Positions 1 through 15,683 of a stretch of 32,000 nucleotides of DNA are shown one piece after another. How positions within the stretch are numbered: the first letter of the stretch is position 1; each line of letters opens with the position of its first letter. Position numbers and translations under genes: made by a program. This DNA is from Candidatus Portiera aleyrodidarum. GTDB lineage: Bacteria; Pseudomonadota; Gammaproteobacteria; Johnevansiales; Johnevansiaceae. The stretch is taken from assembly GCF_000953295.1 (NCBI RefSeq), contig NZ_LN649255.1:180001-212000 (forward strand), in the 5' to 3' direction. The notes under the pieces were generated by a model that had not been told where the DNA came from, did not search any database, and saw only the letters and a list, made by a program, of their open reading frames with translations.

Positions 1-481
1 TCAAAACACTATTTGTGCTGGAGGAAGATATGATTATTTAATAAAATATTTAATTGGAAAAAATATTCCTGCAATTGGTTTTGCTATAGGTATAGAAAGA
101 ATAATATTATTATTAGAAAAAATAAAAAAATTACCAATTAATATAAAATTTAAAATAAATATCTTATTTATTATAATTTCAAATGAAAAATATTTAAAAA
201 TAAACTCAATAAAAATTGCAGAAAAAATTAGAAATGAATTACCTAATTTAATTCTAAAAATTAATTTTTGTAATAAATCTTTAAAAAAACAATTATCTGA
301 GGCAAATAATAAAGGTATATATATTATATTAATTTATGGTATAAATGAACAGAAAAAAAATAAAATAACTATAAAATATTTATATAAAAGAAAAAAACAA
401 AACTTATTAAAGTTAAAAAACTTAATAAAAGAACTAAAATTAATATTTTATCATGAATCAAATTATTTCAATTATTGGTAA
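1..481 (+). CDS. hisS: histidyl-tRNA synthetase, C-terminal fragment (5' end lies outside the window)
   Basis: My translation from nt 2 gives QNTICAGGRYDYLIKYLIGKNIPAIGFAIGIERIILLLE. This is class II HisRS motif 3 (GGRYD ... GFA.G.ER). The frame stays open to TAA at 479-481 and overlaps the der start by 29 nt. Confidence 0.85.
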   Translation, partial: QNTICAGGRYDYLIKYLIGKNIPAIGFAIGIERIILLLEKIKKLPINIKFKINILFIIISNEKYLKINSIKIAEKIRNELPNLILKINFCNKSLKKQLSEANNKGIYIILIYGINEQKKNKITIKYLYKRKKQNLLKLKNLIKELKLIFYHESNYFNYW

Positions 482-1739
482 AACAAATGTAGGGAAATCT
501 ACTTTGTTTAATTGTTTAACAAAAAAAAATAATTCAAGAACAAATAATATTCCTTACTTTACTAGAGATAGAAAGTATGGAATATTAAAAATAAAAAATA
601 AAAATATAAATTTAATAGATACAGCTGCAATTTTGAATGATTTTTTTTCTTATAAAAAAAATAATATAAATTATTCTATTAATAAACAAACCAGAATAGC
701 TATTCAAGAATCAAAGATAATTTTATTTTTAATAAACTCATATACAAAAATTGATTTGTTTTATAAAAAATTTATCAATTATTTAAAACTAAAAAATAAA
801 AAAATTATATTCATTATAAATAAAATTGATTATTTTAATAAATATATTATTACTGATTTTTATAAATTTAATTTAAATCATCCTATTTTTATATCTGCTT
901 TAAAAAAAATAAATATAAAGAAATTATTATTTAATATAAAAAAAAATTTATATAACTATAGAATTTCTATAAAAAATAATAAAAATTTAATTAAGATTTG
1001 TACAATAGGAAAAACAAATGTAGGTAAATCTACATTAATTAATAGTTTATTAAAAGAAACACGTTTAATTATTGATAAAAATCCAGGGACTACAAGAGAA
1101 AATATAAAAATAAAAATAAATTATAAAAATAATTTATTTATTTTAACTGATACTGAAGGAATAGATAAGAATATAAAAAAAAATAAAATATTAAAATTAA
1201 TTAATATATATAATATTATTTTATATATTATTGATGCTAATATAGGATTAGTTGAAATAGATTTATATTTAATAAAAAAAATATTTTTATTAGGTAAATT
1301 TTTAATTTTAATTATTAATAAATGGGATCTTCTAAATATTCATAAAAAAAAATTAATAAAAAATGAATTAAATTTAAAATTAAAAAAATATAAAACTTTC
1401 TTAAGTTTACATTTTATTTCTGCTTTATATTTATATAATATAAAAACTATATTTAATTCTATTGAATATTTTATTTATTTAAAAAATAAAATTTGGTCTA
1501 TTAAAAAATTAACTAATTTAATTAATTTAGCGATAAAAAAAAAACCACCATTAATTTATAAGAATAAAAAAATTAAATTTATATTAGCTAAACAAATAAA
1601 TCAAACTCCAATAAATATTATTATTTTTGGAAACAAAAAAATTAAATGTTTATCAAAAAATTACAAAAAATATTTATTAAATTTTTTTATAAAAAAATTA
1701 AATATAAAAAATATTTTATTAAAAATAACTCTTTTATAA
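453..1739 (+). CDS. der: ribosome-associated GTPase Der/EngA (two tandem GTPase domains)
   Basis: There are two P-loops (GKTNVGKST at residues ~9 and ~186), NKID and NKWD G4 motifs, DTEG in domain 2, and a KH-like C-terminal tail. The N-terminus MNQIISIIGKTNVGKSTLFN is colinear with Der. Confidence 0.9.
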   Translation: MNQIISIIGKTNVGKSTLFNCLTKKNNSRTNNIPYFTRDRKYGILKIKNKNINLIDTAAILNDFFSYKKNNINYSINKQTRIAIQESKIILFLINSYTKIDLFYKKFINYLKLKNKKIIFIINKIDYFNKYIITDFYKFNLNHPIFISALKKINIKKLLFNIKKNLYNYRISIKNNKNLIKICTIGKTNVGKSTLINSLLKETRLIIDKNPGTTRENIKIKINYKNNLFILTDTEGIDKNIKKNKILKLINIYNIILYIIDANIGLVEIDLYLIKKIFLLGKFLILIINKWDLLNIHKKKLIKNELNLKLKKYKTFLSLHFISALYLYNIKTIFNSIEYFIYLKNKIWSIKKLTNLINLAIKKKPPLIYKNKKIKFILAKQINQTPINIIIFGNKKIKCLSKNYKKYLLNFFIKKLNIKNILLKITLL

Positions 1740-1741
1740 GA

Positions 1742-1815
1742 AACGCCCGAGAGGATTTGAACCTCCAACAGTTTGATTCGTAGTCAAAAACTCTATCCAA
1801 TTGAGTTACGGGCGC
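1742..1815 (-). tRNA. tRNA-Arg (anticodon ACG)
   Basis: The reverse complement is GCGCCCGTAACTCAATTGGATAGAGTTTTTGACTACGAATCAAACTGTTGGAGGTTCAAATCCTCTCGGGCGTT and folds as a cloverleaf. The anticodon stem is TTTGA/TCAAA with loop CTACGAA, and the T arm is GGAGG-TTCAAAT-CCTCT. It is close to E. coli tRNA-Arg(ACG). No CCA is encoded. Confidence 0.9.
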
Positions 1816-1830
1816 TTTATAAAAAAATTA

Positions 1831-1925: not shown

Positions 1926-3191
1926 TTATAGTTCTTCTTTTATATTTTTTTTATCTAAACAAAAAGCTGTATGTAATGAATTTATTGCTAAGTGTACAAA
2001 TTTTTCATCTATTATTACAGATATTTTTATTTCAGACGTTGAGACCATTCTAATATTTATATTTTTTTTTGCTAAAACACTAAACATTTTTTTAGCTACA
2101 CATAAATGAGATTTAATACCAACCCCAATTACTGAAATCTTAACAATTTTATCATCTCCATCTATTGTTCCATTTAGTTTATTAAAAACATAATTTTTTA
2201 TAAGATTGTAAGCTTTTTTATAAAAATTTTTTGATAAAGTAAAAGTAAAATCTATTTTATTATTTATTTTTTTTATATTTTGAATTATCATATCTATTTC
2301 TATATTAGCATCTGCTATTTTCTTTACGATTTTATAAGCTACCCCAGGTCTATCTGAAACATTTAAAACAGTTATTTTTGCTTCATTACAATTATAAGTT
2401 ATTCCTGAAATTAATGGTTTTTCCATATTAATTATTAATTTAGACCTCTTATTTATTATTAATGTACCTGGATTATTATCAAAAACAGATAAAACTCTTA
2501 GTGGTATATTATATTTACCTGCAAATTCAACAGAACGGATTTGTAATACTTTTGATCCTAAACTGGAAAGCTCTAACATTTCTTCTACATTTACATATGA
2601 TAATAAACTTGATTTTTTACATATTCTTGGATCTGTTGTATAAACTCCAGAAACATCTGTATATATTTGACATTCATCAGCTTTTATAGAATAAGCTAAT
2701 GCTACAGCAGTTGTATCTGAACCTCCTCTGCCTAACGTAGTTATATTACCATATATATCTATTCCTTGAAAACCAGCTACTACCACTACATTCTTATTTA
2801 TTAGATCTTTATTAATTATTGAAGTATCTATATGTCGAATACGAGCTTTTGTATAAACACTATCAGTAAAAATAGCTACTTGTGCTCCAGTATAAGATTT
2901 TGCTCTAACACCAATAAAATTTAAAGCCATTGATAATAAAGAACTAGTTACTTGTTCTCCAGTTGATATTAAAATATCTAACTCTCGATTTTTATAAAGT
3001 TTAGTAATATTTTTTTTATAAATTTTTTTTGCTAAAGATAATAATTTATTAGTTTCTCCACTCATTGCGGACACAACAACAATTATTTTATGATTTTTTT
3101 TATAAAAAAATTTTATTTTTTTAGCAATATATTTTATATTTTTTATTGATCCTACTGATGTTCCACCAAATTTTTGTACTAAAATTCCCAT
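1926..3191 (-). CDS. lysC: aspartokinase (monofunctional, Pseudomonas/Bacillus-type with C-terminal ACT domains)
   Basis: MGILVQKFGGTSVGS...VVVVSAMSGETNKLL is the aspartokinase signature. I prefer the ATG at 3191 because AGGA lies 5 nt upstream. The ORF track starts at a TTG at 3203, four codons earlier. Confidence 0.9.
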   Translation of the reverse strand: MGILVQKFGGTSVGSIKNIKYIAKKIKFFYKKNHKIIVVVSAMSGETNKLLSLAKKIYKKNITKLYKNRELDILISTGEQVTSSLLSMALNFIGVRAKSYTGAQVAIFTDSVYTKARIRHIDTSIINKDLINKNVVVVAGFQGIDIYGNITTLGRGGSDTTAVALAYSIKADECQIYTDVSGVYTTDPRICKKSSLLSYVNVEEMLELSSLGSKVLQIRSVEFAGKYNIPLRVLSVFDNNPGTLIINKRSKLIINMEKPLISGITYNCNEAKITVLNVSDRPGVAYKIVKKIADANIEIDMIIQNIKKINNKIDFTFTLSKNFYKKAYNLIKNYVFNKLNGTIDGDDKIVKISVIGVGIKSHLCVAKKMFSVLAKKNINIRMVSTSEIKISVIIDEKFVHLAINSLHTAFCLDKKNIKEEL

Positions 3192-3227
3192 TGTTTTCCT
3201 CAAAATAAATATATTTTTTAATATATA

Positions 3228-4694
3228 TTAATATAATTTTAATATATTTTTTAATATATTTTTTATTAGATTTAAATTTTTAACATTTTTTTTATTAGTA
3301 CTTATATATGAAAAAATATTTTTTTTACTATAAATAATATTTTTATTATTAATAAATAATTTATTTAAAATAATTTTTGAATTTAATTTTTTTTTTAAAA
3401 AATCATTCGTTAATCTAATAAATAAATTTATATTATTATTAATCTTTATATATATAATTATTATACTTTTATTAAATAACTTATTTATTAAATTATTTAT
3501 TATTAAATACAAATCGTTTTTATAATAAATTTTTATTTTTTCTATTAAAATTCTATAGTTATATAAATATAGAATTTTTTTTAATAATTTTTTTATAAAA
3601 AAATTTATATTTATATTTTTTATTTCTCTTAAATTATCAATAAGTTCATTTTTTTTATTTATTATATTTAATATATTTTTTTTTATATTGTATATATTTT
3701 GTTTAAAAATATCAGATACATTATTAATTAATAATTTATTTTTTAATAAATAACATATAGCATTTTTATCTGTTAAAGCTTCAATCCGACGTATTCCTTT
3801 AGATATACTTTTTTCTAAAATTATACAAAAAACTCCAATTTTATTAGTACTTTCAACATGTAAACCATCACAAACTTCTATAGAATAACTATTTTTTTTT
3901 CCAATAAAAACTACATTTAATTTTTCTTTTAAATATTTATTTTCAACTAATGCAACTGCTTTAATCTTATTTATTTTTTTTAATGATAATTTTTTTATAA
4001 AAATTATATTATTTTTTAATATCTCATTATTTATTAATTTTTCAATAATAAATAATTTTTCATTAGAAATATTTTTATGATAATTAAAATCAAATGTTAA
4101 ATTTTTATTATTTATTAAAGAACTTTTTTGAATCAGATTTACATTTAATACTCTTTTTAACGTTTCATTTAATAAATGTGTAGCTGAATGATTTTTTTTT
4201 ATTTTATACCGATAAAGTTTATCTATATAAATATTTACTTTATTATTAATAAATAAAATACCTTTTAATAAAACTCCTATATGTAAATATAAATTTTTAT
4301 ATTTAATAACATTTTTTACTTTAAATTTACCTAGATCATTATATATATAACCAACATCTCCAACTTGACCACAAGATTCAAAAAAAAAAGATGTTTTATT
4401 TAAAAGAATAAATCCATTATTTTTTTCATTAATAAAATTAATATTTTTTCCATTTTTATCAAAAATAAAACTTATATTAGTTTTATATTTATAAATATTA
4501 AAATTTATTAAATAATTTTTTTTATCTATATTAACAATTTTTGTATTTAATAAATATTTTTTTTTTGATTTAAATTTATAATTTATCATTTCTTTTTTAA
4601 AACCTAAGTTATCAAACTTTATATTATTTTCTGTTAAAAAATATTTGATTAAATCATAAGGTAAACCATATGTATCATATAATTTAAATATCAA
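3228..4694 (-). CDS. alaS: alanyl-tRNA synthetase, C-terminal part (rest of the tRNA-binding region, editing domain, degenerate C-Ala tail); separate frame from the N-terminal part
   Basis: It begins (L)IFKLYDTYGLPYDL, matching AlaRS FRLYDTYGFPVDL. It contains the editing-site ligand motifs HSATHLL and CDGLHV. It opens at a TTG, and the frame is open upstream only to 4715. Confidence 0.85.
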   Translation of the reverse strand: MIFKLYDTYGLPYDLIKYFLTENNIKFDNLGFKKEMINYKFKSKKKYLLNTKIVNIDKKNYLINFNIYKYKTNISFIFDKNGKNINFINEKNNGFILLNKTSFFFESCGQVGDVGYIYNDLGKFKVKNVIKYKNLYLHIGVLLKGILFINNKVNIYIDKLYRYKIKKNHSATHLLNETLKRVLNVNLIQKSSLINNKNLTFDFNYHKNISNEKLFIIEKLINNEILKNNIIFIKKLSLKKINKIKAVALVENKYLKEKLNVVFIGKKNSYSIEVCDGLHVESTNKIGVFCIILEKSISKGIRRIEALTDKNAICYLLKNKLLINNVSDIFKQNIYNIKKNILNIINKKNELIDNLREIKNININFFIKKLLKKILYLYNYRILIEKIKIYYKNDLYLIINNLINKLFNKSIIIIYIKINNNINLFIRLTNDFLKKKLNSKIILNKLFINNKNIIYSKKNIFSYISTNKKNVKNLNLIKNILKNILKLY

Positions 4695-4702
4695 ACTTCC
4701 AT

Positions 4703-5791
4703 TTATATCATACCTTTATCAAGTAATTTTATAAATTTAAGTTCTTCTTTTAAAATTATTTTTTTTATATTTTCTTTAAAAGAATGTAATTTTTTATAAA
4801 CTTTTCCATAGATTGTATCTAATATATCTATTAATTTATATAAATATGGTTTTAAAACGCCTATTTTATAACCAGAAATTAAAGATCTACGTATTAATCT
4901 ACGTAATACATAACCCTGACTCTTTTTATTTGGTAATAATCCTTCACTTATTAAAAAAGCACTTGTTCTGATATGATCTGCTATAATTTTTAAATATTCT
5001 TTTTTTAAATTTGATACATTTATTATATATTTGATTTCATTTAATAATGGTTTAAAAACATCAATTTCATAATTACAAAAAACATTTTGTTTAATACTTG
5101 CTATTCGTTCTAAACCCATACCTGTATCAACAGAAGTATTAGGTAATAAATATAAATTACCTTTTATATCTTTTTCAAATTGTATAAAAACTAAATTCCA
5201 AAGTTCTATAAAATTTTTCTTATTTAATAATGATATATTTTTCATATCAAGATTTTTATTTTTACAAAAATAAATTTCTGTACAATAACCACAAGGTCCC
5301 ATATTATTCATTTGCCAAAAGTTTTCTTTATCAAATTTAAATATTCTTTTTTTAGATATACCAATTTCATTCACCCAGATGAAATACGATTTTTTATCTT
5401 TATAATGCACTGTTACAAATAAATTTTTTTTGGAAATTTTTAATTCTTCTATAAGAAAAGTCCATGCCAATTTTATAGCATTTTGTTTAAAATAAGAACC
5501 AAAACTAAAATTTCCTAACATTTCAAAAAAAGTATTATGAAAATTAGTATATCCTACATTTTCTAAATCATTATGTTTTCCCCCTACTCTAACACAACAT
5601 TGACTAGATACAACTTGCAAATATTTTATTTTTTCTTTACCTAAAAAAATATTTTTAAATGGAACCATTCCTGAATTTGTAAATAATAATGAAGGATCTT
5701 GGTAAGGTATTATTTTACTAGATTTTAATTTTATATGTTGATGACTTTTAAAAAAATTTAAAAATAATTTTCTTATTTCTGAAGTTTTCAT
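4703..5791 (-). CDS. alaS: alanyl-tRNA synthetase, N-terminal catalytic part (362 codons, ends at an in-frame TAA)
   Basis: The sequence MKTSEIRKLFLNFFKSHQHIKLKSSKIIPYQDPSLLFTNSGMVPFK...CVRVGGKHNDLENVGYTNFHNTFFEMLGNFSFGSYFK is the AlaRS aminoacylation core. AGGT lies 7 nt upstream of the ATG. Confidence 0.9.
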   Translation of the reverse strand: MKTSEIRKLFLNFFKSHQHIKLKSSKIIPYQDPSLLFTNSGMVPFKNIFLGKEKIKYLQVVSSQCCVRVGGKHNDLENVGYTNFHNTFFEMLGNFSFGSYFKQNAIKLAWTFLIEELKISKKNLFVTVHYKDKKSYFIWVNEIGISKKRIFKFDKENFWQMNNMGPCGYCTEIYFCKNKNLDMKNISLLNKKNFIELWNLVFIQFEKDIKGNLYLLPNTSVDTGMGLERIASIKQNVFCNYEIDVFKPLLNEIKYIINVSNLKKEYLKIIADHIRTSAFLISEGLLPNKKSQGYVLRRLIRRSLISGYKIGVLKPYLYKLIDILDTIYGKVYKKLHSFKENIKKIILKEELKFIKLLDKGMI

Positions 5792-5875
5792 TTATATACC
5801 TATATAAATTTTTTATACATTTCATTAACAAAATTTTATTTATTATGCCAAACACATGAGAAGTTTATCAGTACT

Positions 5876-5912
5876 ATGTTATTATATTTATGTTATTATA
5901 TTTATGTTATTG
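5876..5912. repeat. 14-bp tandem direct repeat (ATGTTATTATATTT x2 plus a 9-nt partial copy) in the alaS/mutS divergent intergenic region
   Basis: Read directly: 5876-5889 and 5890-5903 are identical, and 5904-5912 repeats the first 7 nt and then diverges. Confidence 0.7.
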
Positions 5913-5971
5913 TAAAGAACTTATTTTGATTTTCATTATATCATATATCCTATAACTATTTAAAAAACCGT

Positions 5972-8389
5972 ATGAAAAATAATTCAAAAAATACAACACC
6001 AATAATTACACAATATTTAAAAATAAAAAATAAATATAAAGATATTTTATTATTATATCGTTTGGGTGATTTTTATGAATTTTTGTTTGATGATGCAAAA
6101 AAAGCATCTTCTTTATTAAAGATACAATTAACTAGTAGAGGAAAATATAATAATAAACCTATACCTATGGCAGGTATACCTTCTCACAGTATAGAATCTT
6201 ATTTAAAACGTCTAATAGATTCAGGAATATCTGTAGCTATTTGTGAACAAATAAAAAATAAAAAAAAAAATAATAATAATTTAATAGAACGAAAAGTAAT
6301 AAGAGTAATTACTCCAGGAACTATATATGAAGAAAATTTATTAGATGAGAATAAAGATAATTTAATTTTATCTATAATATACCAAAATAAAATCTGGGGA
6401 ATTGCCTCTTTAGAATTAACAACAGGTTATTTTGGAGTTTTAGAAGTTAATAATAAAAAAGACTTATTTTTAGAATTAGAACGTTTAGACCCTGCAGAAG
6501 TCTTAATTCCTTATTCAATGAAATTTAAAAAATTACCAATAAAAAAATCAATAATAAAATATATAAAAAATAAAAATTTTAATTATGAGAATTCCTATAA
6601 TTTAATTTTAAATAAATTAAATATTAAAAATATAAATAAGAAATTATATAATGGGATATGTGCAGCAGGGGCAATTATAAAATATATAAATAATAACAAA
6701 ATTTATAATTTATCACATATAAATAATTTATTTATTGAAAATAAAAAATATAATTTAAATATAGATAATACAACTAAAAAACATTTAGAAATTAATATAA
6801 ATGTTAATGGAAAAAAAGATAACACATTGTTTAGTATTTTAAATACTACAAATACAAATATGGGCAGCAGATTATTAAAAAAATGGATAAATAACCCATT
6901 TTTAAATTATCAACTAATCGAATTGAGACAAAACGCTATTTCAAAAATTATAAATTATGATTTAATATATTTTTTAAAAAAAAATATAAAAAAAATTGGT
7001 GATATCGAACGTATTATTACTAGAATAGCTTTAAAAAAAGCTAAGCCAATAGATTTAATAAAATTAAGAAATGCATTAAAAGTTTTTCCTAACATAAAAA
7101 GTTTATTAAATATTATTTTAAATAAAGAAAAAAAAATAAAATCTATACTTAATAATATTAATATATATTTAATTACTTATCCAAATATTGAATTAATTTT
7201 AATAAATTCAATAAATGATAACCCACCTAATAATATTAAAGATGGTTATGTAATAAAATCAAATTTTAATAACAAATTAGATAATTTACGTGAAAATTAT
7301 AATAACTCAGAAAATTATATAAGAACTTTTGAAAAGAAAGAAAAAATTCGTACAAAAATAAATCAACTAAAAATTAATTATAATAATATTAATGGATATT
7401 TTATAGAAATACCTAAAAAGAAAATTAAAAAATATAAAATACCAAAAGAATATATAAAAAGTAAATCATTAAAAAATTCAGAAAGATTTTATTCTAAAGA
7501 ATTAAAACTTTTAGAAAAAAAATTATTAGAATATAAAGAAAATTTAATTTTATATGAAAGAAAAATTTATAAAAAAATAATAAATATAATTATAAACAAT
7601 ATAAAAAAATTATTAAAAACATCTAAAGCTCTTGCTGCTTTAGATGTTATTACAACTTTATCTGAAAGAGCTGTATCATTAAATTTTTGTAGACCAATAA
7701 TTAATAAAAATAAAATTGGAATAAAAATAATTGAAGGGAGACATCCTATAATAGAATTAGTAACTAATAATCAGTTCATACCTAATAATTTATCATTAAC
7801 TAATAATAATAATATCAAAATTATTACAGGGCCAAATATGGGAGGAAAATCTACTTATATAAGACAAAATGCAATAATTGTTTTATTAACTTATATCGGG
7901 AGTTATGTACCTGCTAAATATGCAGAAATAGGTCCAATTGATAAAATTTTTACTAGAATAGGATCATATGATGATTTAAGTTCAGGAAATTCTACGTTTA
8001 TGATAGAAATGAAAGAAACAGCAAATATACTAAATAATGCAACATTCAAAAGTTTAATTTTAATGGATGAAATAGGTAGAGGAACAAACCCTAATGAAGG
8101 CTTCGCCATAGCTTGGGCTTGTTTAGAACAAATAATAAAAATTAAAGCGTTAACTTTATTTTCTACTCATTTTTTTACTTTAACTAAAATAGAAAAAAAA
8201 TTTAAACAAATAAAAAATATACATTTTAATGCAATAGAAAATAATAATCAACTTATTTATATGTATAATATTAATAAAGGAGCTATTAATAATAGTTATA
8301 GTTTAACTGTAGCAAAGTTAGCTAATGTACCAAAAAATGTTATTGAAAAATCTACAAAAATTATTTATTTACTAAATAATAATAAATAA
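5972..8389 (+). CDS. mutS: DNA mismatch repair protein MutS
   Basis: TPIITQYLKIKNKYKDILLLYRLGDFYEFLFDDAKKAS contains the mismatch-binding GDFYE motif. It also has the Walker A GPNMGGKSTYIRQ, and DEIGRGT. At 805 aa it is colinear with E. coli MutS. Confidence 0.93.
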   Translation: MKNNSKNTTPIITQYLKIKNKYKDILLLYRLGDFYEFLFDDAKKASSLLKIQLTSRGKYNNKPIPMAGIPSHSIESYLKRLIDSGISVAICEQIKNKKKNNNNLIERKVIRVITPGTIYEENLLDENKDNLILSIIYQNKIWGIASLELTTGYFGVLEVNNKKDLFLELERLDPAEVLIPYSMKFKKLPIKKSIIKYIKNKNFNYENSYNLILNKLNIKNINKKLYNGICAAGAIIKYINNNKIYNLSHINNLFIENKKYNLNIDNTTKKHLEININVNGKKDNTLFSILNTTNTNMGSRLLKKWINNPFLNYQLIELRQNAISKIINYDLIYFLKKNIKKIGDIERIITRIALKKAKPIDLIKLRNALKVFPNIKSLLNIILNKEKKIKSILNNINIYLITYPNIELILINSINDNPPNNIKDGYVIKSNFNNKLDNLRENYNNSENYIRTFEKKEKIRTKINQLKINYNNINGYFIEIPKKKIKKYKIPKEYIKSKSLKNSERFYSKELKLLEKKLLEYKENLILYERKIYKKIINIIINNIKKLLKTSKALAALDVITTLSERAVSLNFCRPIINKNKIGIKIIEGRHPIIELVTNNQFIPNNLSLTNNNNIKIITGPNMGGKSTYIRQNAIIVLLTYIGSYVPAKYAEIGPIDKIFTRIGSYDDLSSGNSTFMIEMKETANILNNATFKSLILMDEIGRGTNPNEGFAIAWACLEQIIKIKALTLFSTHFFTLTKIEKKFKQIKNIHFNAIENNNQLIYMYNINKGAINNSYSLTVAKLANVPKNVIEKSTKIIYLLNNNK

Positions 8390-8403
8390 TTTTTTTAACC
8401 ATA

Positions 8404-9288
8404 TTATATTTTTTTTCCATAAATTTGATTTTTAGCTTTGTAACTTGATCTTATTAAAGGACCTGAAGCAATATAATTAAATCCTAAAATATAACCTTTT
8501 TTTGCATAATAATAAAATTTCTTTGGTTTTATCCATCTTTTAATTGGTAAATGAAATTCAGATGGAGAAATATATTGTCCTATTGTTATAATTTCAACTT
8601 GATTTTTTTTTATATCTTTCATAACATTTATAATTTGTTGATCAGTTTCACCTAACCCTGCCATTAAACCTGATTTTGTTTTTACACTTGGACAAAAATT
8701 TTTATATTTTTTTAATAAATTTAATGAGTTAAAATAATTGCCACCCGGTTTAACTTTTAAATAGAAATTTTTAATTGTTTCAATATTATGATTAAATACA
8801 TTTGGTTTGTTTTTACTTAAAATCTTAATAGCAATATCTATTTTTCCTCTAAAATCAGGTACTAAAATTTCTATTTTTATATTATTATATAATCTTTTTA
8901 TTGCTCCAATACATTTAGAAAAATGATTTGCTCCCCCTTCATATAAATCATCACGATTAACAGAAGTAATTACTATATAATTTATATTTAATTTAATTAT
9001 TAATTTGATTATATCAAAAGGTTCATAATAATTTATATTTTTAGGATTACCATATAAGACATCACAAAAAGGACATTTTCTTGTACATTTATTTCCTAAA
9101 ATCATTATAGTAGCTGTATTTTCATTAAAACATTTTATAATATTAGGACAAGAAGATTCTTCACAAACAGTATGTAAATAATTTTTACGTAATTTTTTTT
9201 TTATATTTTTTATTTCATTAAAAATTGGTATACGAAGTTTAATCCAATTTGGTTTTTTTTTATTTATTTTTAATATTTTATTTTTCAT
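8404..9288 (-). CDS. lipA: lipoyl synthase (radical SAM)
   Basis: It carries CEESSCPNIIKC plus the CTRKCPFCDV cysteine clusters typical of LipA. It overlaps lipB by 4 nt. Confidence 0.93.
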   Translation of the reverse strand: MKNKILKINKKKPNWIKLRIPIFNEIKNIKKKLRKNYLHTVCEESSCPNIIKCFNENTATIMILGNKCTRKCPFCDVLYGNPKNINYYEPFDIIKLIIKLNINYIVITSVNRDDLYEGGANHFSKCIGAIKRLYNNIKIEILVPDFRGKIDIAIKILSKNKPNVFNHNIETIKNFYLKVKPGGNYFNSLNLLKKYKNFCPSVKTKSGLMAGLGETDQQIINVMKDIKKNQVEIITIGQYISPSEFHLPIKRWIKPKKFYYYAKKGYILGFNYIASGPLIRSSYKAKNQIYGKKI

Positions 9289-9941
9289 AGCTTTCCTATA
9301 TGTTTTAAAAAACAGTAAACCCCAACATTTGCTTCTAACTCAAACTTAATAGCAAAATTATAGATATCACAAAGCTTTATCATTTTTATATTAATTAAAT
9401 CACAAGGTTTAAAATTCTTAAATATATTCAGATTAAAATTAATATTATATGATAATCCATGAAAACTACATCCTTTACTTATACCTAAACCTAATGACGC
9501 TATTTTATATTCTTGATTTTTATAATTTATATAAACACCATGATTTTTTATTTTATATGCAAAAATACCATGAAAAAATAAAACATCGAGAAATGTATTT
9601 TCTAAAATATTTATTAAATTATAAATATTTATTTTTAACCGTTTAATATTTAATAATATATAAAAAATTAATTGTCCTGGGGTATGAAGTGTAATTTTTC
9701 CACCTCTATTAATTTTTAATAAAAATATATTTTTTTTTATAAAAAAAATATTTTTTTTATCTAAATTACCTTTAGTAAAAATTTTAAAATGTTCTAAAAT
9801 TAAAATTTTATCTGGATCATTAAGATTTCTATATTTTGAATATAACTTCATATATTTTATAATATATGAATAATTATATTTTTTCAAACAATTAAATATT
9901 AAAATTTTTGTATTTAATATATATATTTTTTTTATTTTCAT
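9285..9941 (-). CDS. lipB: octanoyltransferase
   Basis: RGGKITLHTPGQLIFY matches LipB RGGQVTYHGPGQ. The catalytic KIASLG and GCSFHGLS motifs are present. Confidence 0.88.
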   Translation of the reverse strand: MKIKKIYILNTKILIFNCLKKYNYSYIIKYMKLYSKYRNLNDPDKILILEHFKIFTKGNLDKKNIFFIKKNIFLLKINRGGKITLHTPGQLIFYILLNIKRLKINIYNLINILENTFLDVLFFHGIFAYKIKNHGVYINYKNQEYKIASLGLGISKGCSFHGLSYNINFNLNIFKNFKPCDLINIKMIKLCDIYNFAIKFELEANVGVYCFLKHIGKL

Positions 9942-14273: not shown

Positions 14274-15683
14274 CTAAAGGATTGGGGATGCTAAAAAAGC
14301 TGATCTGGAAATTAATTTCTTTATTAAAGAACGACAATTAATTTCATTTAACCTTATTAATCTACAAGATAATAAATCTTGTTTTAACATATAATTAACA
14401 TCTTTAGCAAATTCATAATCAATAATATATGCTGTTATTTCAAAATTTAATCTAAATGATCTATTATCTAAATTCATTGTTCCTACTGAAGCTGTATGAT
14501 CGTCAATTAACATAACTTTTTGATGTAAAAAACCTTTTATATATTTATATATTTTTACTCCAGATTTGATTAAATCAGATAAAAAACTAAAGGTAGATAA
14601 ATAAACTAATAACTGATCTGTTCGTTCAGGTATAATTATCTTAACATCTACACCTCTTAATGCAGCTAATTTTAAGGAATCTATTACACTTTGATCTGGA
14701 AGAAAATAAGGGCTAGTTATCCAAAATTTTTTTTTTGCGAGATTAATAGCATTTTGAATTAAAAGACTTGCATTATTTATATTATATATAGGTCCAGAAG
14801 GGACGATAATTATATTTTGATTTTTAAATTTTGATATTATTGGTTTCCAATTTAAATTTTTCAATTTTTTTCCTGTTGTCCAAAACCAATCCTCTAAAAA
14901 AATTTCTTGTAAACATAAAACACTAGGTCCAATTATATGTAAATGTGTATCTCTCCAATATCCTAATTTTTTATTTCTACCTAAATATTCAATACCTATA
15001 TTTAAACCTCCTGTCCATCCTTCTTTACCATCTATTATTACCAATTTTCTATGATTACAAAAATTAATGTTTAAAATATTTTTCCAACCATTACATGATC
15101 CAAAATTAAAAATGTTTATTCCTGCTTTTCTTAATTCTTTTATAAATTTAAATGATAACCTCTGACTACCAATTTGATCATAAATAAAAAAAACTTTCAC
15201 TCCTTTTTTTACACTAGATATTAAAATATTTTTTAACGTTTGACCAACTTTATCATTTTTTATGATAAAAAATTGAATTAAAATATATTTTTTTGCTCTT
15301 TTAATACCATTAAACATACTTTTAAAAGAAATATATCCATTAATTAATAATATTGCAGAATTTGCTTTTGTTAATGGTAAATTTGCTAATTTCTCTACTA
15401 ATTTTACATTAACATTAGTATTAGACTTTAGATGATTTTTTTCTTTATAAAAATTTTTTTTTATAGTATATCCACCAAACTTTGGACAAGATAATATCCA
15501 AAATATAGGAATTGATAAATATGGAAATGTTATTAAAGATATTAACCATGCAATAGCACCTTGAGCTGATCTACTAATCAGAATAGCTACTATTATAGTG
15601 TATAATAATAACAAAAAAATTATTATTTTCATAAAAATTTTAAATATATATAAAATATCAATAAAATTTAAATCAAAATTCAT
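14274..15683 (-). CDS. cls: cardiolipin synthase (two HKD phospholipase D motifs)
   Basis: It has N-terminal transmembrane helices and two HxK(x)4D motifs: NHRKLVIIDGKEGWTGGLNIG and LHQKVMLIDDHTASVGTMNLDNRS. Confidence 0.88.
   Translation of the reverse strand: MNFDLNFIDILYIFKIFMKIIIFLLLLYTIIVAILISRSAQGAIAWLISLITFPYLSIPIFWILSCPKFGGYTIKKNFYKEKNHLKSNTNVNVKLVEKLANLPLTKANSAILLINGYISFKSMFNGIKRAKKYILIQFFIIKNDKVGQTLKNILISSVKKGVKVFFIYDQIGSQRLSFKFIKELRKAGINIFNFGSCNGWKNILNINFCNHRKLVIIDGKEGWTGGLNIGIEYLGRNKKLGYWRDTHLHIIGPSVLCLQEIFLEDWFWTTGKKLKNLNWKPIISKFKNQNIIIVPSGPIYNINNASLLIQNAINLAKKKFWITSPYFLPDQSVIDSLKLAALRGVDVKIIIPERTDQLLVYLSTFSFLSDLIKSGVKIYKYIKGFLHQKVMLIDDHTASVGTMNLDNRSFRLNFEITAYIIDYEFAKDVNYMLKQDLLSCRLIRLNEINCRSLIKKLISRSAFLASPIL

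What the first reader, a model, noticed from the sequence alone, without database searches (positions are those of the whole stretch)
3228..5791. Essential alaS is broken into two long, motif-intact ORFs (362 + 488 codons) in different frames
Seen: ORF 4703..5791 carries the AlaRS catalytic core and ends ...FIKLLDKGMI-TAA. ORF 3228..4694 starts (L)IFKLYDTYGLPYDL and keeps the editing-site ligand motifs HSATHLL and CDGLHV. Against E. coli AlaRS as I recall it, FIKLLDKGMI aligns with FARTLERGLA, and INGSLIFKLYDTYG (readable in the downstream frame) aligns with LDGETAFRLYDTYG. So homology runs right up to the break from both sides. About a dozen linker residues are missing, and the downstream part is in the -1/+2 frame. 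Inference: both halves have stayed open for more than 1 kb each in a genome that removes dead DNA cleanly (see the collapsed loci in this window). That argues against a decaying pseudogene. The break lies near the boundary that deletion studies of E. coli AlaRS placed between the adenylate-forming N-terminal ~368 residues and the tRNA-binding region. A naturally split AlaRS is known in Nanoarchaeum equitans, so a two-piece enzyme is conceivable. There is no homopolymer at the junction, so the poly(A) transcriptional-slippage rescue described for Buchnera and Blochmannia does not obviously apply.
Basis: partly seen in the sequence, partly recalled or inferred. Interest (0 to 1): 0.7.

Follow-up and report, generated by a model that had tools for sequence, protein, structure and literature searches.

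The report
Split alaS in whitefly symbiont Portiera
The alanyl-tRNA synthetase gene of this whitefly endosymbiont really is cut into two intact reading frames by a 37-base deletion, but the split was already published in 2015, and related strains have lost the catalytic half altogether, so the gene is not essential here.

Summary
The window is Candidatus Portiera aleyrodidarum AD-CAI, the symbiont of the whitefly Aleurodicus dispersus. ORF 4703..5791(-) holds the intact AlaRS catalytic core. ORF 3228..4694(-) holds the rest, with the editing motifs HSATH and CDGLH. The sister strain AF-CAI has one intact 866-codon alaS that is 98.8% identical. The only indel between them is a 37-nt deletion in AD, so this is not a 1-base error. 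No slippery site or homopolymer could rejoin the frames. Santos-Garcia et al. 2015 (PMC5322561) already describe this as a gene fission (alaS plus alaXp). They also report that Bemisia and Trialeurodes Portiera keep only the C-terminal editing part. New here:
- The break maps to about E. coli residue 375|394. That is the 368N boundary and the alpha|beta split of Nanoarchaeum AlaRS.
- One other Portiera contig still carries debris of the lost N domain.
- The open frames do not show function, because AD and AF have diverged too little (dS about 0.05).
Best reading: a real, young fission in which the C piece serves as a free-standing editing protein. The N piece is either early in the same loss (about 0.5) or works with the C piece (about 0.35). 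Already known; modest interest.

The parts
4703..5791 (-). alaS N piece: 362 codons plus TAA (4703..4705). [quoted passage not shown] It equals CEI58765.1 (P0121).
   Evidence: Pfam tRNA-synt_2c E=4.9e-126, profile 1-366/552. NCBIfam alaS 417 bits, model 1-365/847. Motif 2 VRVGGKHNDLENVG lies at 5552..5593, ELWNLVF at 5186..5206 and motif 3 VDTGMGLERI at 5102..5131. All are invariant-column residues in alignment A2. The AF2 model ends in a helix, residues 339-361.
4707..4708 (-). Deletion junction. 37 nt present in AF-CAI (AATTTTTTAAATAAAAAATTATTAAATAAATTTAATT, coding NFLNKKLLNKFNY) are absent between these two bases, with 1 nt of ambiguity. The deletion shifts the frame and creates ATA-TAA.
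   Evidence: Pairwise DNA alignment of window 3228..5791(-) with L020 10001..12601. It shows one 37-column gap and 30 mismatches in 2564 nt. E. coli and other AlaRS have residues here, so AF is the ancestral state.
4691..4702 (-). Spacer after the N-piece stop. It reads ATG GAA GTT TGA, a 3-codon mini-ORF directly after TAA. Its TGA overlaps the TTG start of the C piece (TTGA). This geometry would allow termination-reinitiation, which is an inference only.
3228..4694 (-). alaS C piece, called 'alaXp': 488 codons from TTG 4694..4692. It equals CEI58763.1 (P0001). It holds the remainder of the tRNA-recognition domain (three helices), the beta-barrel, the editing core, a long helix and a globular C-Ala domain.
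   Evidence: Pfam tRNA-synt_2c 387-550/552 and tRNA_SAD E=3.2e-11. AF2 mean pLDDT 85. Foldseek matches: full-length A. fulgidus AlaRS (TMq 0.67), AlaX-M (TMt 0.78-0.82), AlaX-S (TMt 0.85-0.87) and the C-Ala dimerisation domain 2zvf (TMt 0.75).
4665..4679 (-). YDTYG. Its Asp is the equivalent of E. coli Asp400, which contacts G3 of the G3:U70 pair. It is part of the C piece only if translation starts at TTG 4694.
   Evidence: Role of Asp400 and Asn303 as cited in PMC11392972.
4587..4589 (-). Internal ATG (codon 36 of the C-piece ORF, KKE-M-INYKF). This alternative start would give a 453-aa protein. It is the positional equivalent of the alaXp start in another Portiera lineage (L024, MKKQKLKSK).
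   Evidence: An AGG lies 14-16 nt upstream. Nearly all genes in the window start at ATG.
4176..4190 (-). Editing-site motif HSATH (HxxxH, zinc ligands).
   Evidence: H169 and H173 are invariant in the 40-sequence alignment A3.
3858..3872 (-). Editing-site motif CDGLH (CxxxH, zinc ligands). AF-CAI and the other Portiera have CNG.H, so N276D is derived in AD.
5792..5971 (.). Intergenic region between the divergent genes alaS and mutS. It is the presumed promoter region for the co-oriented run alaS-N, alaS-C, lysC. An AGG lies 10 nt before the alaS ATG.
   Evidence: The promoter scan is uninformative at this AT content (38 hits against 43 expected).
1926..3203 (-). lysC, 24 nt downstream of the C piece on the same strand. 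The order mutS<- ->alaS/alaXp->lysC is conserved in every Portiera locus fetched.

Best explanation
Origin (shown): in the Portiera lineage of Aleurodicus dispersus, less than about 18 My after it separated from the A. floccissimus symbiont, a single 37-bp deletion removed 13 codons from alaS. The deletion lies at the end of a helix in the tRNA-recognition domain and shifted the frame.

Products (shown for the ORFs, inferred for expression): the result is two adjacent, co-oriented and probably co-transcribed ORFs. No slippage mechanism can fuse them.

C piece (conservation shown, activity inferred): the downstream ORF (beta-barrel, editing core, C-Ala) works as a free-standing AlaX-like trans-editing protein that clears Ser- or Gly-tRNAAla. 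This is the part of alaS that every Portiera lineage has kept for more than 125 My. It is translated either from the internal ATG 4589 or, by reinitiation, from TTG 4694.

N piece (inferred): the upstream ORF (catalytic core, equivalent to E. coli 1 to about 375) is still undamaged only because the event is young. It most likely is the first stage of the catalytic-domain loss that the Aleyrodinae symbionts have completed. There alanylation of tRNAAla must come from outside the symbiont. At most the N piece retains weak activity.
For: - Identity of the window: the C piece is 100% identical to CEI58763.1 and the N piece equals CEI58765.1, both on the 290,195-bp Portiera genome.
- The lesion: the sister AF-CAI gene is intact (866 aa, NCBIfam alaS 724.7 bits against a cut-off of 457). 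It differs by one 37-nt gap plus 30 substitutions.
- Coverage is 90x and 1500x, and the AD-AF split is dated at 18.35 Ma.
- No rejoining: there is no slippery heptamer and no run longer than 3 nt in the 12-nt window where a shift would have to occur.
- C piece kept elsewhere: Portiera of Trialeurodes (P0124, 433 aa) and three unnamed whitefly-derived contigs (410, 332 and 327 aa) keep only the C-terminal part at the same mutS/lysC locus. HxxxH, CxxxH and GIRRIE are conserved in them.
- Decay of the N domain elsewhere: L024 305..702 still shows ordered debris of the N domain (SCQNCIILGGK, DTGMGL*RIASI, ISEGLLPNN, TYGLP*), and its alaXp starts at the equivalent of AD's internal ATG. The TV locus retains only MKTLEINKRLFIV*.
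- Literature: alaS is lost in the Portiera of B. tabaci, T. vaporariorum, P. mori and S. simplex (PMC5322561; PMC7821994).
- Start codon: the TTG start has no properly spaced SD (GGAAG at -6..-2). About half the window's genes have AGGA/GGAG at -9..-15, and ATG is the rule.
- Hints of relaxed constraint in AD: S276T at a 98%-conserved Ser, Y306S at an H/Y-only column, and six AD-derived against one AF-derived replacements in the C half.
Against: - Both ORFs are free of any further lesion, and all catalytic and editing motifs are intact.
- Non-synonymous change is not significantly raised over ten neighbouring genes. N half: 10 observed against 6.4 expected, P=0.11. C half: 9 against 8.7.
- The AD/AF asymmetry in the C half (6:1) is not significantly different from the neighbours (26:15).
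- Aleurodicus Portiera kept the full gene for more than 100 My after Aleyrodinae lost it, and AF still has it. This suggests it was still needed in this host lineage.
- The break falls exactly where a natural two-subunit AlaRS is known to work.
- The stop-to-start geometry (TAA, 8 nt, TTG) would suit translational coupling.
- No expression or activity data exist.
Confidence: 0.5

Rival explanations
1. A working two-subunit AlaRS. The N piece (catalytic core plus the Asn303-side of the recognition domain) and the C piece started at TTG 4694 (Asp400-side, editing, C-Ala) associate non-covalently through the pre-existing subdomain interface. Together they charge tRNAAla, as AlaRS-alpha and AlaRS-beta of Nanoarchaeum equitans do.
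For: - The break maps to about E. coli 375|394, next to the 368N boundary to which N. equitans alpha corresponds. There, alpha plus beta are strongly active and G3:U70-specific, while alpha alone is weak (PMC11392972; PMC10036535).
- Both ORFs and all motifs are intact.
- The genes are adjacent with an 8-nt gap, and a TGA overlaps the TTG.
- The total number of substitutions in the N half (18) equals the expectation under neighbour-level constraint (17.1).
- AF-CAI keeps the gene intact, which implies selection for AlaRS in this host lineage.
Against: - The event is too young for intactness to carry weight.
- Thirteen residues of the recognition domain are gone.
- TTG with a badly spaced SD is an atypical start in this genome. 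If ATG 4589 is used instead, the Asp400 equivalent is lost.
- The Asn303 loop is already degenerate (PNKKSQG against PSNEGRG) in both AD and AF.
- Other Portiera live without the catalytic domain.
- As far as I know, trans-complementation of bacterial AlaRS fragments cut here has not been shown.
Confidence: 0.35
2. Both pieces are dead. The whole alaS, editing part included, became a pseudogene very recently in AD, and nothing is made from it.
For: Six of seven polarisable amino-acid changes in the C half are on the AD branch, including N276D inside the CxxxH motif. The C piece has no convincing start signal.
Against: The editing part has been retained as an ORF in every other Portiera lineage for more than 125 My, so its loss only here is unlikely. 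Zinc ligands and other invariant residues are intact. Non-synonymous change in the C half equals the neighbour expectation (9 against 8.7).
Confidence: 0.08
3. Assembly or amplification artefact. The real A. dispersus symbiont has an intact alaS, and the 37-nt gap arose from whole-genome amplification chimeras or mis-assembly of an AT-rich stretch.
For: - The DNA was MDA-amplified from pooled bacteriomes.
- The deleted stretch is low-complexity A/T.
- A second gap of exactly 37 nt and one of 30 nt occur in AD within the same 15.7 kb.
- No independent A. dispersus data could be found.
Against: - Coverage is 90x 454 plus 1500x Illumina from ten pooled reactions.
- The typical 454 error is in homopolymer length, not a 37-nt loss.
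- No repeat flanks the gap that could collapse it.
- The authors examined and discussed the locus as a fission.
Confidence: 0.04
4. Recoding. A -1 ribosomal frameshift or transcriptional slippage rejoins the frames and yields one polypeptide of about 853 aa that lacks 13 residues.
For: A single extra base anywhere in the 12-nt stretch AGGTATGATATA would restore one frame; for example, adding an A gives ...LLDKRYDINGSLIFKLYD.
Against: The stretch contains no X XXY YYZ heptamer and no run longer than three identical bases, so neither mechanism has a substrate.
Confidence: 0.03

Closest known systems
[quoted passage not shown] 2015, Genome Biol Evol 7:873 (PMC5322561)
   Same: Same genome (AD-CAI, 290,195 bp), same two ORFs (CEI58765.1 and CEI58763.1), and the same comparison with an intact gene in AF-CAI and alaXp-only in the Bemisia and Trialeurodes symbionts.
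   Different: The passages of the paper retrieved here do not give several things established in this analysis:
- the lesion itself (a 37-nt deletion);
- its position relative to E. coli 368N and the N. equitans split;
- the start-codon problem of the C piece;
- the N-domain debris in another lineage;
- any test of selection on the two pieces.
Split AlaRS of Nanoarchaeota (N. equitans AlaRS-alpha NEQ547 / AlaRS-beta NEQ211)
   Same: The natural break falls at the same place in the tRNA-recognition domain: alpha corresponds to E. coli 368N, and the break here is at about residue 375. The catalytic core plus the Asn303 side is on one piece. The Asp400 side plus editing plus C-Ala is on the other.
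   Different: - The Nanoarchaeota enzyme is archaeal-type and the origin is independent.
- Its genes lie half a chromosome apart, its split is ancient and shared by several Nanoarchaeota, and its activity has been shown in vitro.
- Here the pieces are adjacent, the split is less than 18 My old and confined to one strain, 13 residues are deleted, and no activity data exist.
AlaX trans-editing proteins (AlaX-S, AlaX-M, AlaX-L)
   Same: A free-standing protein with the AlaRS editing fold and the HxxxH / CxxxH zinc site. The architecture of beta-barrel, editing core and C-terminal domain resembles AlaX-L. Foldseek TMt is 0.78-0.87 to AlaX-M and AlaX-S.
   Different: It derives directly from the organism's own alaS by truncation and is not a member of the AlaX orthologous groups (NCBIfam AlaXM 74 bits against a cut-off of 300). 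It also carries a leftover of the tRNA-recognition domain.
Engineered E. coli AlaRS fragments 368N, 442N and 461N (Jasin, Regan and Schimmel 1983-87; Guo et al. 2009; as cited in PMC11392972)
   Same: The N piece is nearly the 368N fragment. The paper read says 368N cannot alanylate tRNAAla; that it still forms the adenylate is from my own knowledge of Jasin et al. 1983. Residues up to 442-461 are needed for aminoacylation.
   Different: This is a natural fragment in a highly diverged, AT-rich protein in which the Asn303 loop is already altered.

Membership tests
Bacterial alanine--tRNA ligase (alaS, NCBIfam TIGR00344 equivalog) | One polypeptide scoring above the curated cut-off (457 bits) over the whole model | tested here: not met
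   The N piece scores 417.1 bits (model 1-365) and the C piece 281.5 bits (model 385-827). The intact AF-CAI protein scores 724.7 bits.
Bacterial alanine--tRNA ligase (alaS, NCBIfam TIGR00344 equivalog) | Class II catalytic motifs (motif 2 R..GGKHNDLENVG, EIWN, motif 3 DTGMGLER) | tested here: met
   All are present in the N piece and fall in invariant columns of the 41-sequence alignment A2.
Bacterial alanine--tRNA ligase (alaS, NCBIfam TIGR00344 equivalog) | Continuous tRNA-recognition domain carrying the G3:U70 readers (E. coli Asn303 and Asp400) | tested here: not met
   The domain is interrupted at about E. coli residue 375|394 with 13 residues deleted. The Asp400 equivalent is present only on the C piece. 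The Asn303 column is Lys, with the loop reading PNKKSQG, in both AD and AF.
Bacterial alanine--tRNA ligase (alaS, NCBIfam TIGR00344 equivalog) | Alanylation of tRNAAla | not testable with these tools
   This needs enzyme assays with the recombinant N piece with and without the C piece.
AlaX-type free-standing alanyl-tRNA editing proteins | Editing-core fold with HxxxH and CxxxH zinc ligands | tested here: met
   HSATH and CDGLH are present. H169, H173, C275 and H279 are invariant in A3. Pfam tRNA_SAD E=3.2e-11. Foldseek to AlaX-S and AlaX-M gives TMt 0.78-0.87.
AlaX-type free-standing alanyl-tRNA editing proteins | Encoded separately from the aminoacylation domain | tested here: met
   It is a separate ORF in another frame after the TAA stop. 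The same holds for four other Portiera lineages.
AlaX-type free-standing alanyl-tRNA editing proteins | Membership of the AlaX orthologous group (NCBIfam NF040865 AlaXM, cut-off 300 bits) | tested here: not met
   It scores 74.4 bits, and its best match is the alaS equivalog itself. It works like an AlaX but descends from alaS.
AlaX-type free-standing alanyl-tRNA editing proteins | Hydrolysis of Ser- or Gly-tRNAAla in trans | not testable with these tools
   A deacylation assay is needed.
Naturally split two-subunit AlaRS (Nanoarchaeota type) | Break inside the tRNA-recognition domain at the E. coli 368N equivalent | tested here: met
   The N piece ends at about E. coli residue 375. N. equitans alpha corresponds to 368N (PMC11392972).
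Naturally split two-subunit AlaRS (Nanoarchaeota type) | Both subunits expressed and jointly required for specific alanylation | not testable with these tools
   No transcript, protein or activity data are available. The start codon of the C piece is uncertain.
Naturally split two-subunit AlaRS (Nanoarchaeota type) | Split maintained over evolutionary time in related lineages | tested here: not met
   The sister strain is intact. No other N-domain relative closer than 51% identity was found among 5.8 billion proteins. Other Portiera lost the N domain.
Frameshift rescue by ribosomal or transcriptional slippage | Slippery heptamer or homopolymer of 7 nt or more in the frame-overlap window | tested here: not met
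   The overlap window AGGTATGATATA has no such element, and the longest run is 3 nt.

The most novel reading that the evidence does not exclude
The two ORFs could encode a functioning two-subunit bacterial AlaRS. It would have been created less than 18 My ago by one 37-bp deletion, at the same domain boundary that Nanoarchaeota use. That would be a natural, datable and convergent re-enactment of synthetase fission. The sister strain would supply the unsplit control, and the Aleyrodinae symbionts would show the end state in which only the editing subunit survives.
Probability: 0.3. Interest if true: 0.6.

Novelty: already known. Interest (0 to 1): 0.3.

Why it matters
AlaRS is the synthetase that most strictly keeps its four-domain architecture across life. 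Natural breaks in it are very rare: the Nanoarchaeota split and the Tupanvirus mini-AlaRS are the known cases. The Portiera clade offers a graded series at one syntenic locus:
- intact (AF-CAI);
- freshly split (AD-CAI);
- N domain in ruins (L024);
- N domain gone (Trialeurodes symbiont, L023).
This series shows how a symbiont sheds aminoacylation while keeping proofreading. It implies that tRNAAla charging is supplied from outside the symbiont while mischarged tRNAAla is still policed inside. The fission itself is already in the literature, so what remains of value is a cheap experimental test of whether the two pieces still work together.

Tried and rejected
- Exact-protein look-ups of both pieces found no contig, so no independent assembly of this strain was available.
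- The single genome-contig scan returned only distant AlaRS (35-46% identity) and no Portiera.
- Two metagenome scans, one with the junction sequence and one with a flank conserved between AD and AF, found nothing.
- The promoter and terminator scan was uninformative at this AT content (38 hits against 43 expected).
- dN/dS as a test of relaxed selection has too little power at dS of about 0.05. The high ratio in the C half (0.64) comes from a synonymous deficit in 11.5%-GC sequence, not from excess replacements.
- A search for a closer N-domain relative, to polarise changes or find other split genes, found none. The best match was 51% identity.
- Counting changes at conserved columns to show that the AF-CAI enzyme was already degenerate did not hold up. 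The intact AlaRS of Stammera has as many changes (46 against 43 of 157). Only the Asn303 loop stands out.
- Recoding by frameshift or slippage was considered and rejected for lack of any slippery element.
- A 1-nt sequencing error was rejected, because the lesion is 37 nt.
Full report
**What the sequence shows**

On the minus strand, ORF 4703..5791 (362 codons, ATG start) ends ...FIKLLDKGMI-TAA. ORF 3228..4694 (488 codons, from a TTG) begins (M/L)IFKLYDTYGLPYDL. The downstream frame is open back to **RYDINGSLIF and is -1/+2 relative to the upstream frame. HSATH lies at 4176..4190 and CDGLH at 3858..3872. Pfam tRNA-synt_2c covers profile positions 1-366 on the first ORF and 387-550 on the second. 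The NCBIfam alaS equivalog covers positions 1-365 and 385-827.

**Where the window comes from**

The window has 12-28% GC. The C piece is 100% identical to CEI58763.1, and the N piece is CEI58765.1. Both lie on the 290,195-bp genome of Candidatus Portiera aleyrodidarum. Their 90% cluster also holds an 866-aa 'alanine--tRNA ligase', CEL12444.1, from a 290,376-bp genome. Table 1 of Santos-Garcia et al. 2015 (PMC5322561) assigns these sizes to strain AD-CAI (host Aleurodicus dispersus) and strain AF-CAI (A. floccissimus).

**Already described**

[quoted passage not shown] A later paper lists alaS as lost in the Portiera of T. vaporariorum, P. mori, B. tabaci and S. simplex (PMC7821994). All Portiera also lack argS and thrS. 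The finding is therefore real but published, and the premise that alaS is essential does not hold in this clade.

**The lesion**

I fetched the AF-CAI locus (L020, LN734649.1) and aligned the genes. There is one gap of 37 nt in AD, and otherwise 30 mismatches in 2564 nt, or 98.8% identity.
- AF reads GGTATG-AATTTTTTAAATAAAAAATTATTAAATAAATTTAATT-ATATAAATGG and encodes KGM-NFLNKKLLNKFNY-INGSL.
- E. coli and other AlaRS have residues in this stretch, so AF is ancestral and AD carries a deletion.
- A 37-nt loss is not the homopolymer-length error typical of 454 reads, and the genome had 90x 454 and 1500x Illumina coverage. I rate an artefact at about 4%. No independent A. dispersus data could be found to settle it.
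- The only place where a shift could fuse the frames is the 12-nt stretch AGGTATGATATA. It has no slippery heptamer and no run longer than 3 nt. Recoding is rated at about 3%.

**Where the break falls in the enzyme**

Against E. coli AlaRS (3HXU) the N piece ends at about residue 375. The deleted 13 residues correspond to about 376-389. The TTG codon corresponds to about 394, and the Asp of YDTYG is Asp400.

Arutaki et al. 2020 (PMC11392972) state three relevant points. [quoted passage not shown] The 368N fragment cannot alanylate tRNAAla, and 442N is the minimal active fragment. Asn303 and Asp400 read the G3:U70 pair. Alpha plus beta is active and specific, while alpha alone is weak and non-specific. 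The Portiera break is thus a near-exact positional analogue of the Nanoarchaeota split, and the two G3:U70 readers end up on different pieces.

Structure predictions agree with this layout.
- The N piece (mean pLDDT 73) ends in a helix at residues 339-361.
- The C piece (mean pLDDT 85) consists of three short helices (1-47), a disordered linker, a beta-barrel, the editing core, a long helix and a globular C-terminal domain.
- The C-piece model matches full-length A. fulgidus AlaRS, AlaX-M, AlaX-S and the C-Ala dimerisation domain.

**What other Portiera tell us**

A search with the C piece found four further Portiera-type proteins. They are P0124 (433 aa, 'Alanyl-tRNA editing protein', Trialeurodes strain), P0123 (410 aa), P0125 (332 aa) and P0126 (327 aa). 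They are 56-64% identical to the C piece (BLASTP) and lack the N domain. The three loci fetched (P0124, P0123 and P0126) sit in the same place between mutS and lysC. HxxxH, CxxxH and GIRRIE are conserved in all four proteins.

The DNA upstream shows the N domain at different stages of removal.
- L024 305..702 contains ordered debris: SCQNCIILGGK, DTGMGL*RIASI, ISEGLLPNN and TYGLP*. Its alaXp starts at the ATG equivalent to AD's codon 36.
- The Trialeurodes locus keeps only MKTLEINKRLFIV*, a remnant of the alaS 5' end, in a 193-nt spacer.
- A search with the N piece found nothing closer than 51% identity, apart from the sister strain AF-CAI, which shares the query's own 90% cluster and so is not listed separately. 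No other sequenced Portiera retains the N domain.

The C-terminal editing part has therefore been kept as an autonomous protein for more than 125 My, while the catalytic part was dispensable in Aleyrodinae.

**Do the open frames argue for function?**

They do not, because too little time has passed. Nei-Gojobori counts between AD and AF are as follows.

| Region | Synonymous | Non-synonymous | omega |
|---|---|---|---|
| N half | 8 | 10 | 0.27 |
| C half | 3 | 9 | 0.64 |
| Ten neighbouring genes, pooled | 124.7 | 69.3 | 0.13 (pS 0.054, pN 0.0072) |

- Against the neighbour expectation, non-synonymous change is not significantly raised. The N half has 10 against 6.4 expected (P=0.11), and the C half has 9 against 8.7.
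- The high omega of the C half comes from a synonymous deficit (3 against 13.9, P=0.0005) in sequence of 11.5% GC.
- About 6.9% of single-base changes in either ORF create a stop. With the roughly 10 substitutions the AD branch can have had, an unconstrained frame stays open with P about 0.5.
- Polarising with two outgroup Portiera, six C-half replacements are AD-derived and one is AF-derived, against 26:15 in the neighbours. This is suggestive but not significant. One of the six is N276D inside the CxxxH motif.
- Polarising the N half with 110 distant AlaRS, the AD-derived changes include S276T (Ser in 98%) and Y306S (an H/Y-only column). The AF-derived changes fall in variable columns.
- In both AD and AF the loop PSNEGRGYVLRR, which carries Asn303, reads PNKKS(Q/H)GYVLRR.
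- Overall divergence at conserved columns is no greater than in the intact AlaRS of Stammera (43 against 46 of 157).

**Translation of the C piece**

About half the genes in the window have AGGA/GGAG 9-15 nt upstream, and nearly all start at ATG.
- The TTG at 4694 has GGAAG only 1 nt upstream. It lies 8 nt after the N-piece stop, and the TGA of a mini-ORF (TAA-ATG-GAA-GTT-TGA) overlaps it. Reinitiation there is possible but is only an inference.
- The internal ATG at 4589 has an AGG at -16..-14 and matches the start used in L024. A protein started there lacks the Asp400 equivalent and could only be an editing factor.

**Conclusion**

The fission is genuine (about 0.9) and cannot be repaired by slippage. 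The C piece very probably functions as an AlaX-like trans-editing protein (about 0.8). For the N piece the data do not discriminate. I favour, at about 0.5, that AD has taken the first step of the catalytic-domain loss already completed in Aleyrodinae. I give about 0.35 to a working Nanoarchaeum-like two-subunit enzyme. The remainder goes to both pieces being dead (0.08), an artefact (0.04) and recoding (0.03). Because the split was explicitly reported in 2015, novelty is 'already known' and interest is modest. The remaining question, whether the pieces work together, can be tested directly.

Noticed in passing
window ~1728 (3' end of der, 453..1739 +, next to tRNA-Arg 1740..1816) and window ~15438 (PLD-like gene 14274..15683 -): AD-CAI has a second gap of exactly 37 nt relative to AF-CAI at the der 3' end, giving 428 against 433 aa. 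It also has a 30-nt in-frame gap in the PLD-like gene, giving 469 against 479 aa. All three medium-sized indels in the shared 15.7 kb are losses in AD. The deleted sequences share no similarity or flanking repeats. The equal length of 37 nt is unexplained.
   Followed up: partly
L020 (AF-CAI), opposite window ~9550; AD ORF 9285..9941 (-): lipB is an intact 218-codon ORF in AD. AF-CAI has a 1-nt deletion that turns T6AT4 into a T10 run (A10 on the coding strand), and its gene call is only 149 aa. This is a homopolymer frameshift of the kind that transcriptional slippage could rescue.
   Followed up: no
window 3228..4694: The C half of alaS has only 3 synonymous differences from AF-CAI where 13.9 are expected from the neighbouring genes (P=0.0005). 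Its GC content is 11.5%. Synonymous sites appear saturated in A/T, which inflates dN/dS there.
   Followed up: partly
window 4916..4936 (residues 286-292 of the N piece): The loop that carries the G3:U70-reading Asn303 (PSNEGRG in gammaproteobacterial AlaRS, PSNEYRG in Stammera) reads LPNKKSQ in AD and LPNKKSH in AF. The otherwise invariant Arg is lost in both strains, so this change predates the fission.
   Followed up: partly
L024 305..702; L021 9808..10000: An unnamed whitefly-derived Portiera contig (SRA run ERR13328196) keeps about 400 nt of recognisable, stop-ridden debris of the alaS catalytic domain upstream of its alaXp. The Trialeurodes-type locus keeps only a remnant of the first 13 codons (MKTLEINKRLFIV*).
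   Followed up: yes
L023 9184..9396: Upstream of the called alaXp start (ATG 9397), the same frame stays open and is clearly homologous to the AlaRS beta-barrel for 71 codons. It contains no ATG, GTG or TTG. Either a non-canonical start is used, or this is a fresh 5' truncation.
   Followed up: partly
L019 6001..8680 (Candidatus Stammera capleta, CP144782.1): Its alaS reads as one 893-codon frame only if TGA is translated as Trp. There are five in-frame TGA codons, one of them at the invariant Trp. A full-text search returned papers on UGA-to-Trp reassignment that also mention Stammera. I did not open them, so whether the reassignment is already reported for Stammera is not checked.
   Followed up: partly
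window 3191..3203: The mechanical ORF start of lysC (TTG 3203) is probably not the real start. An ATG at 3191 is preceded by AGGAAA and gives MGILVQKFGG, which matches the 421-aa gene call in AF-CAI.
   Followed up: partly
window 8380..8400: The 3' end of mutS differs between the strains. A 3-nt indel and several substitutions give 805 aa in AD against 817 aa in AF, and the end abuts the convergent lipA.
   Followed up: no
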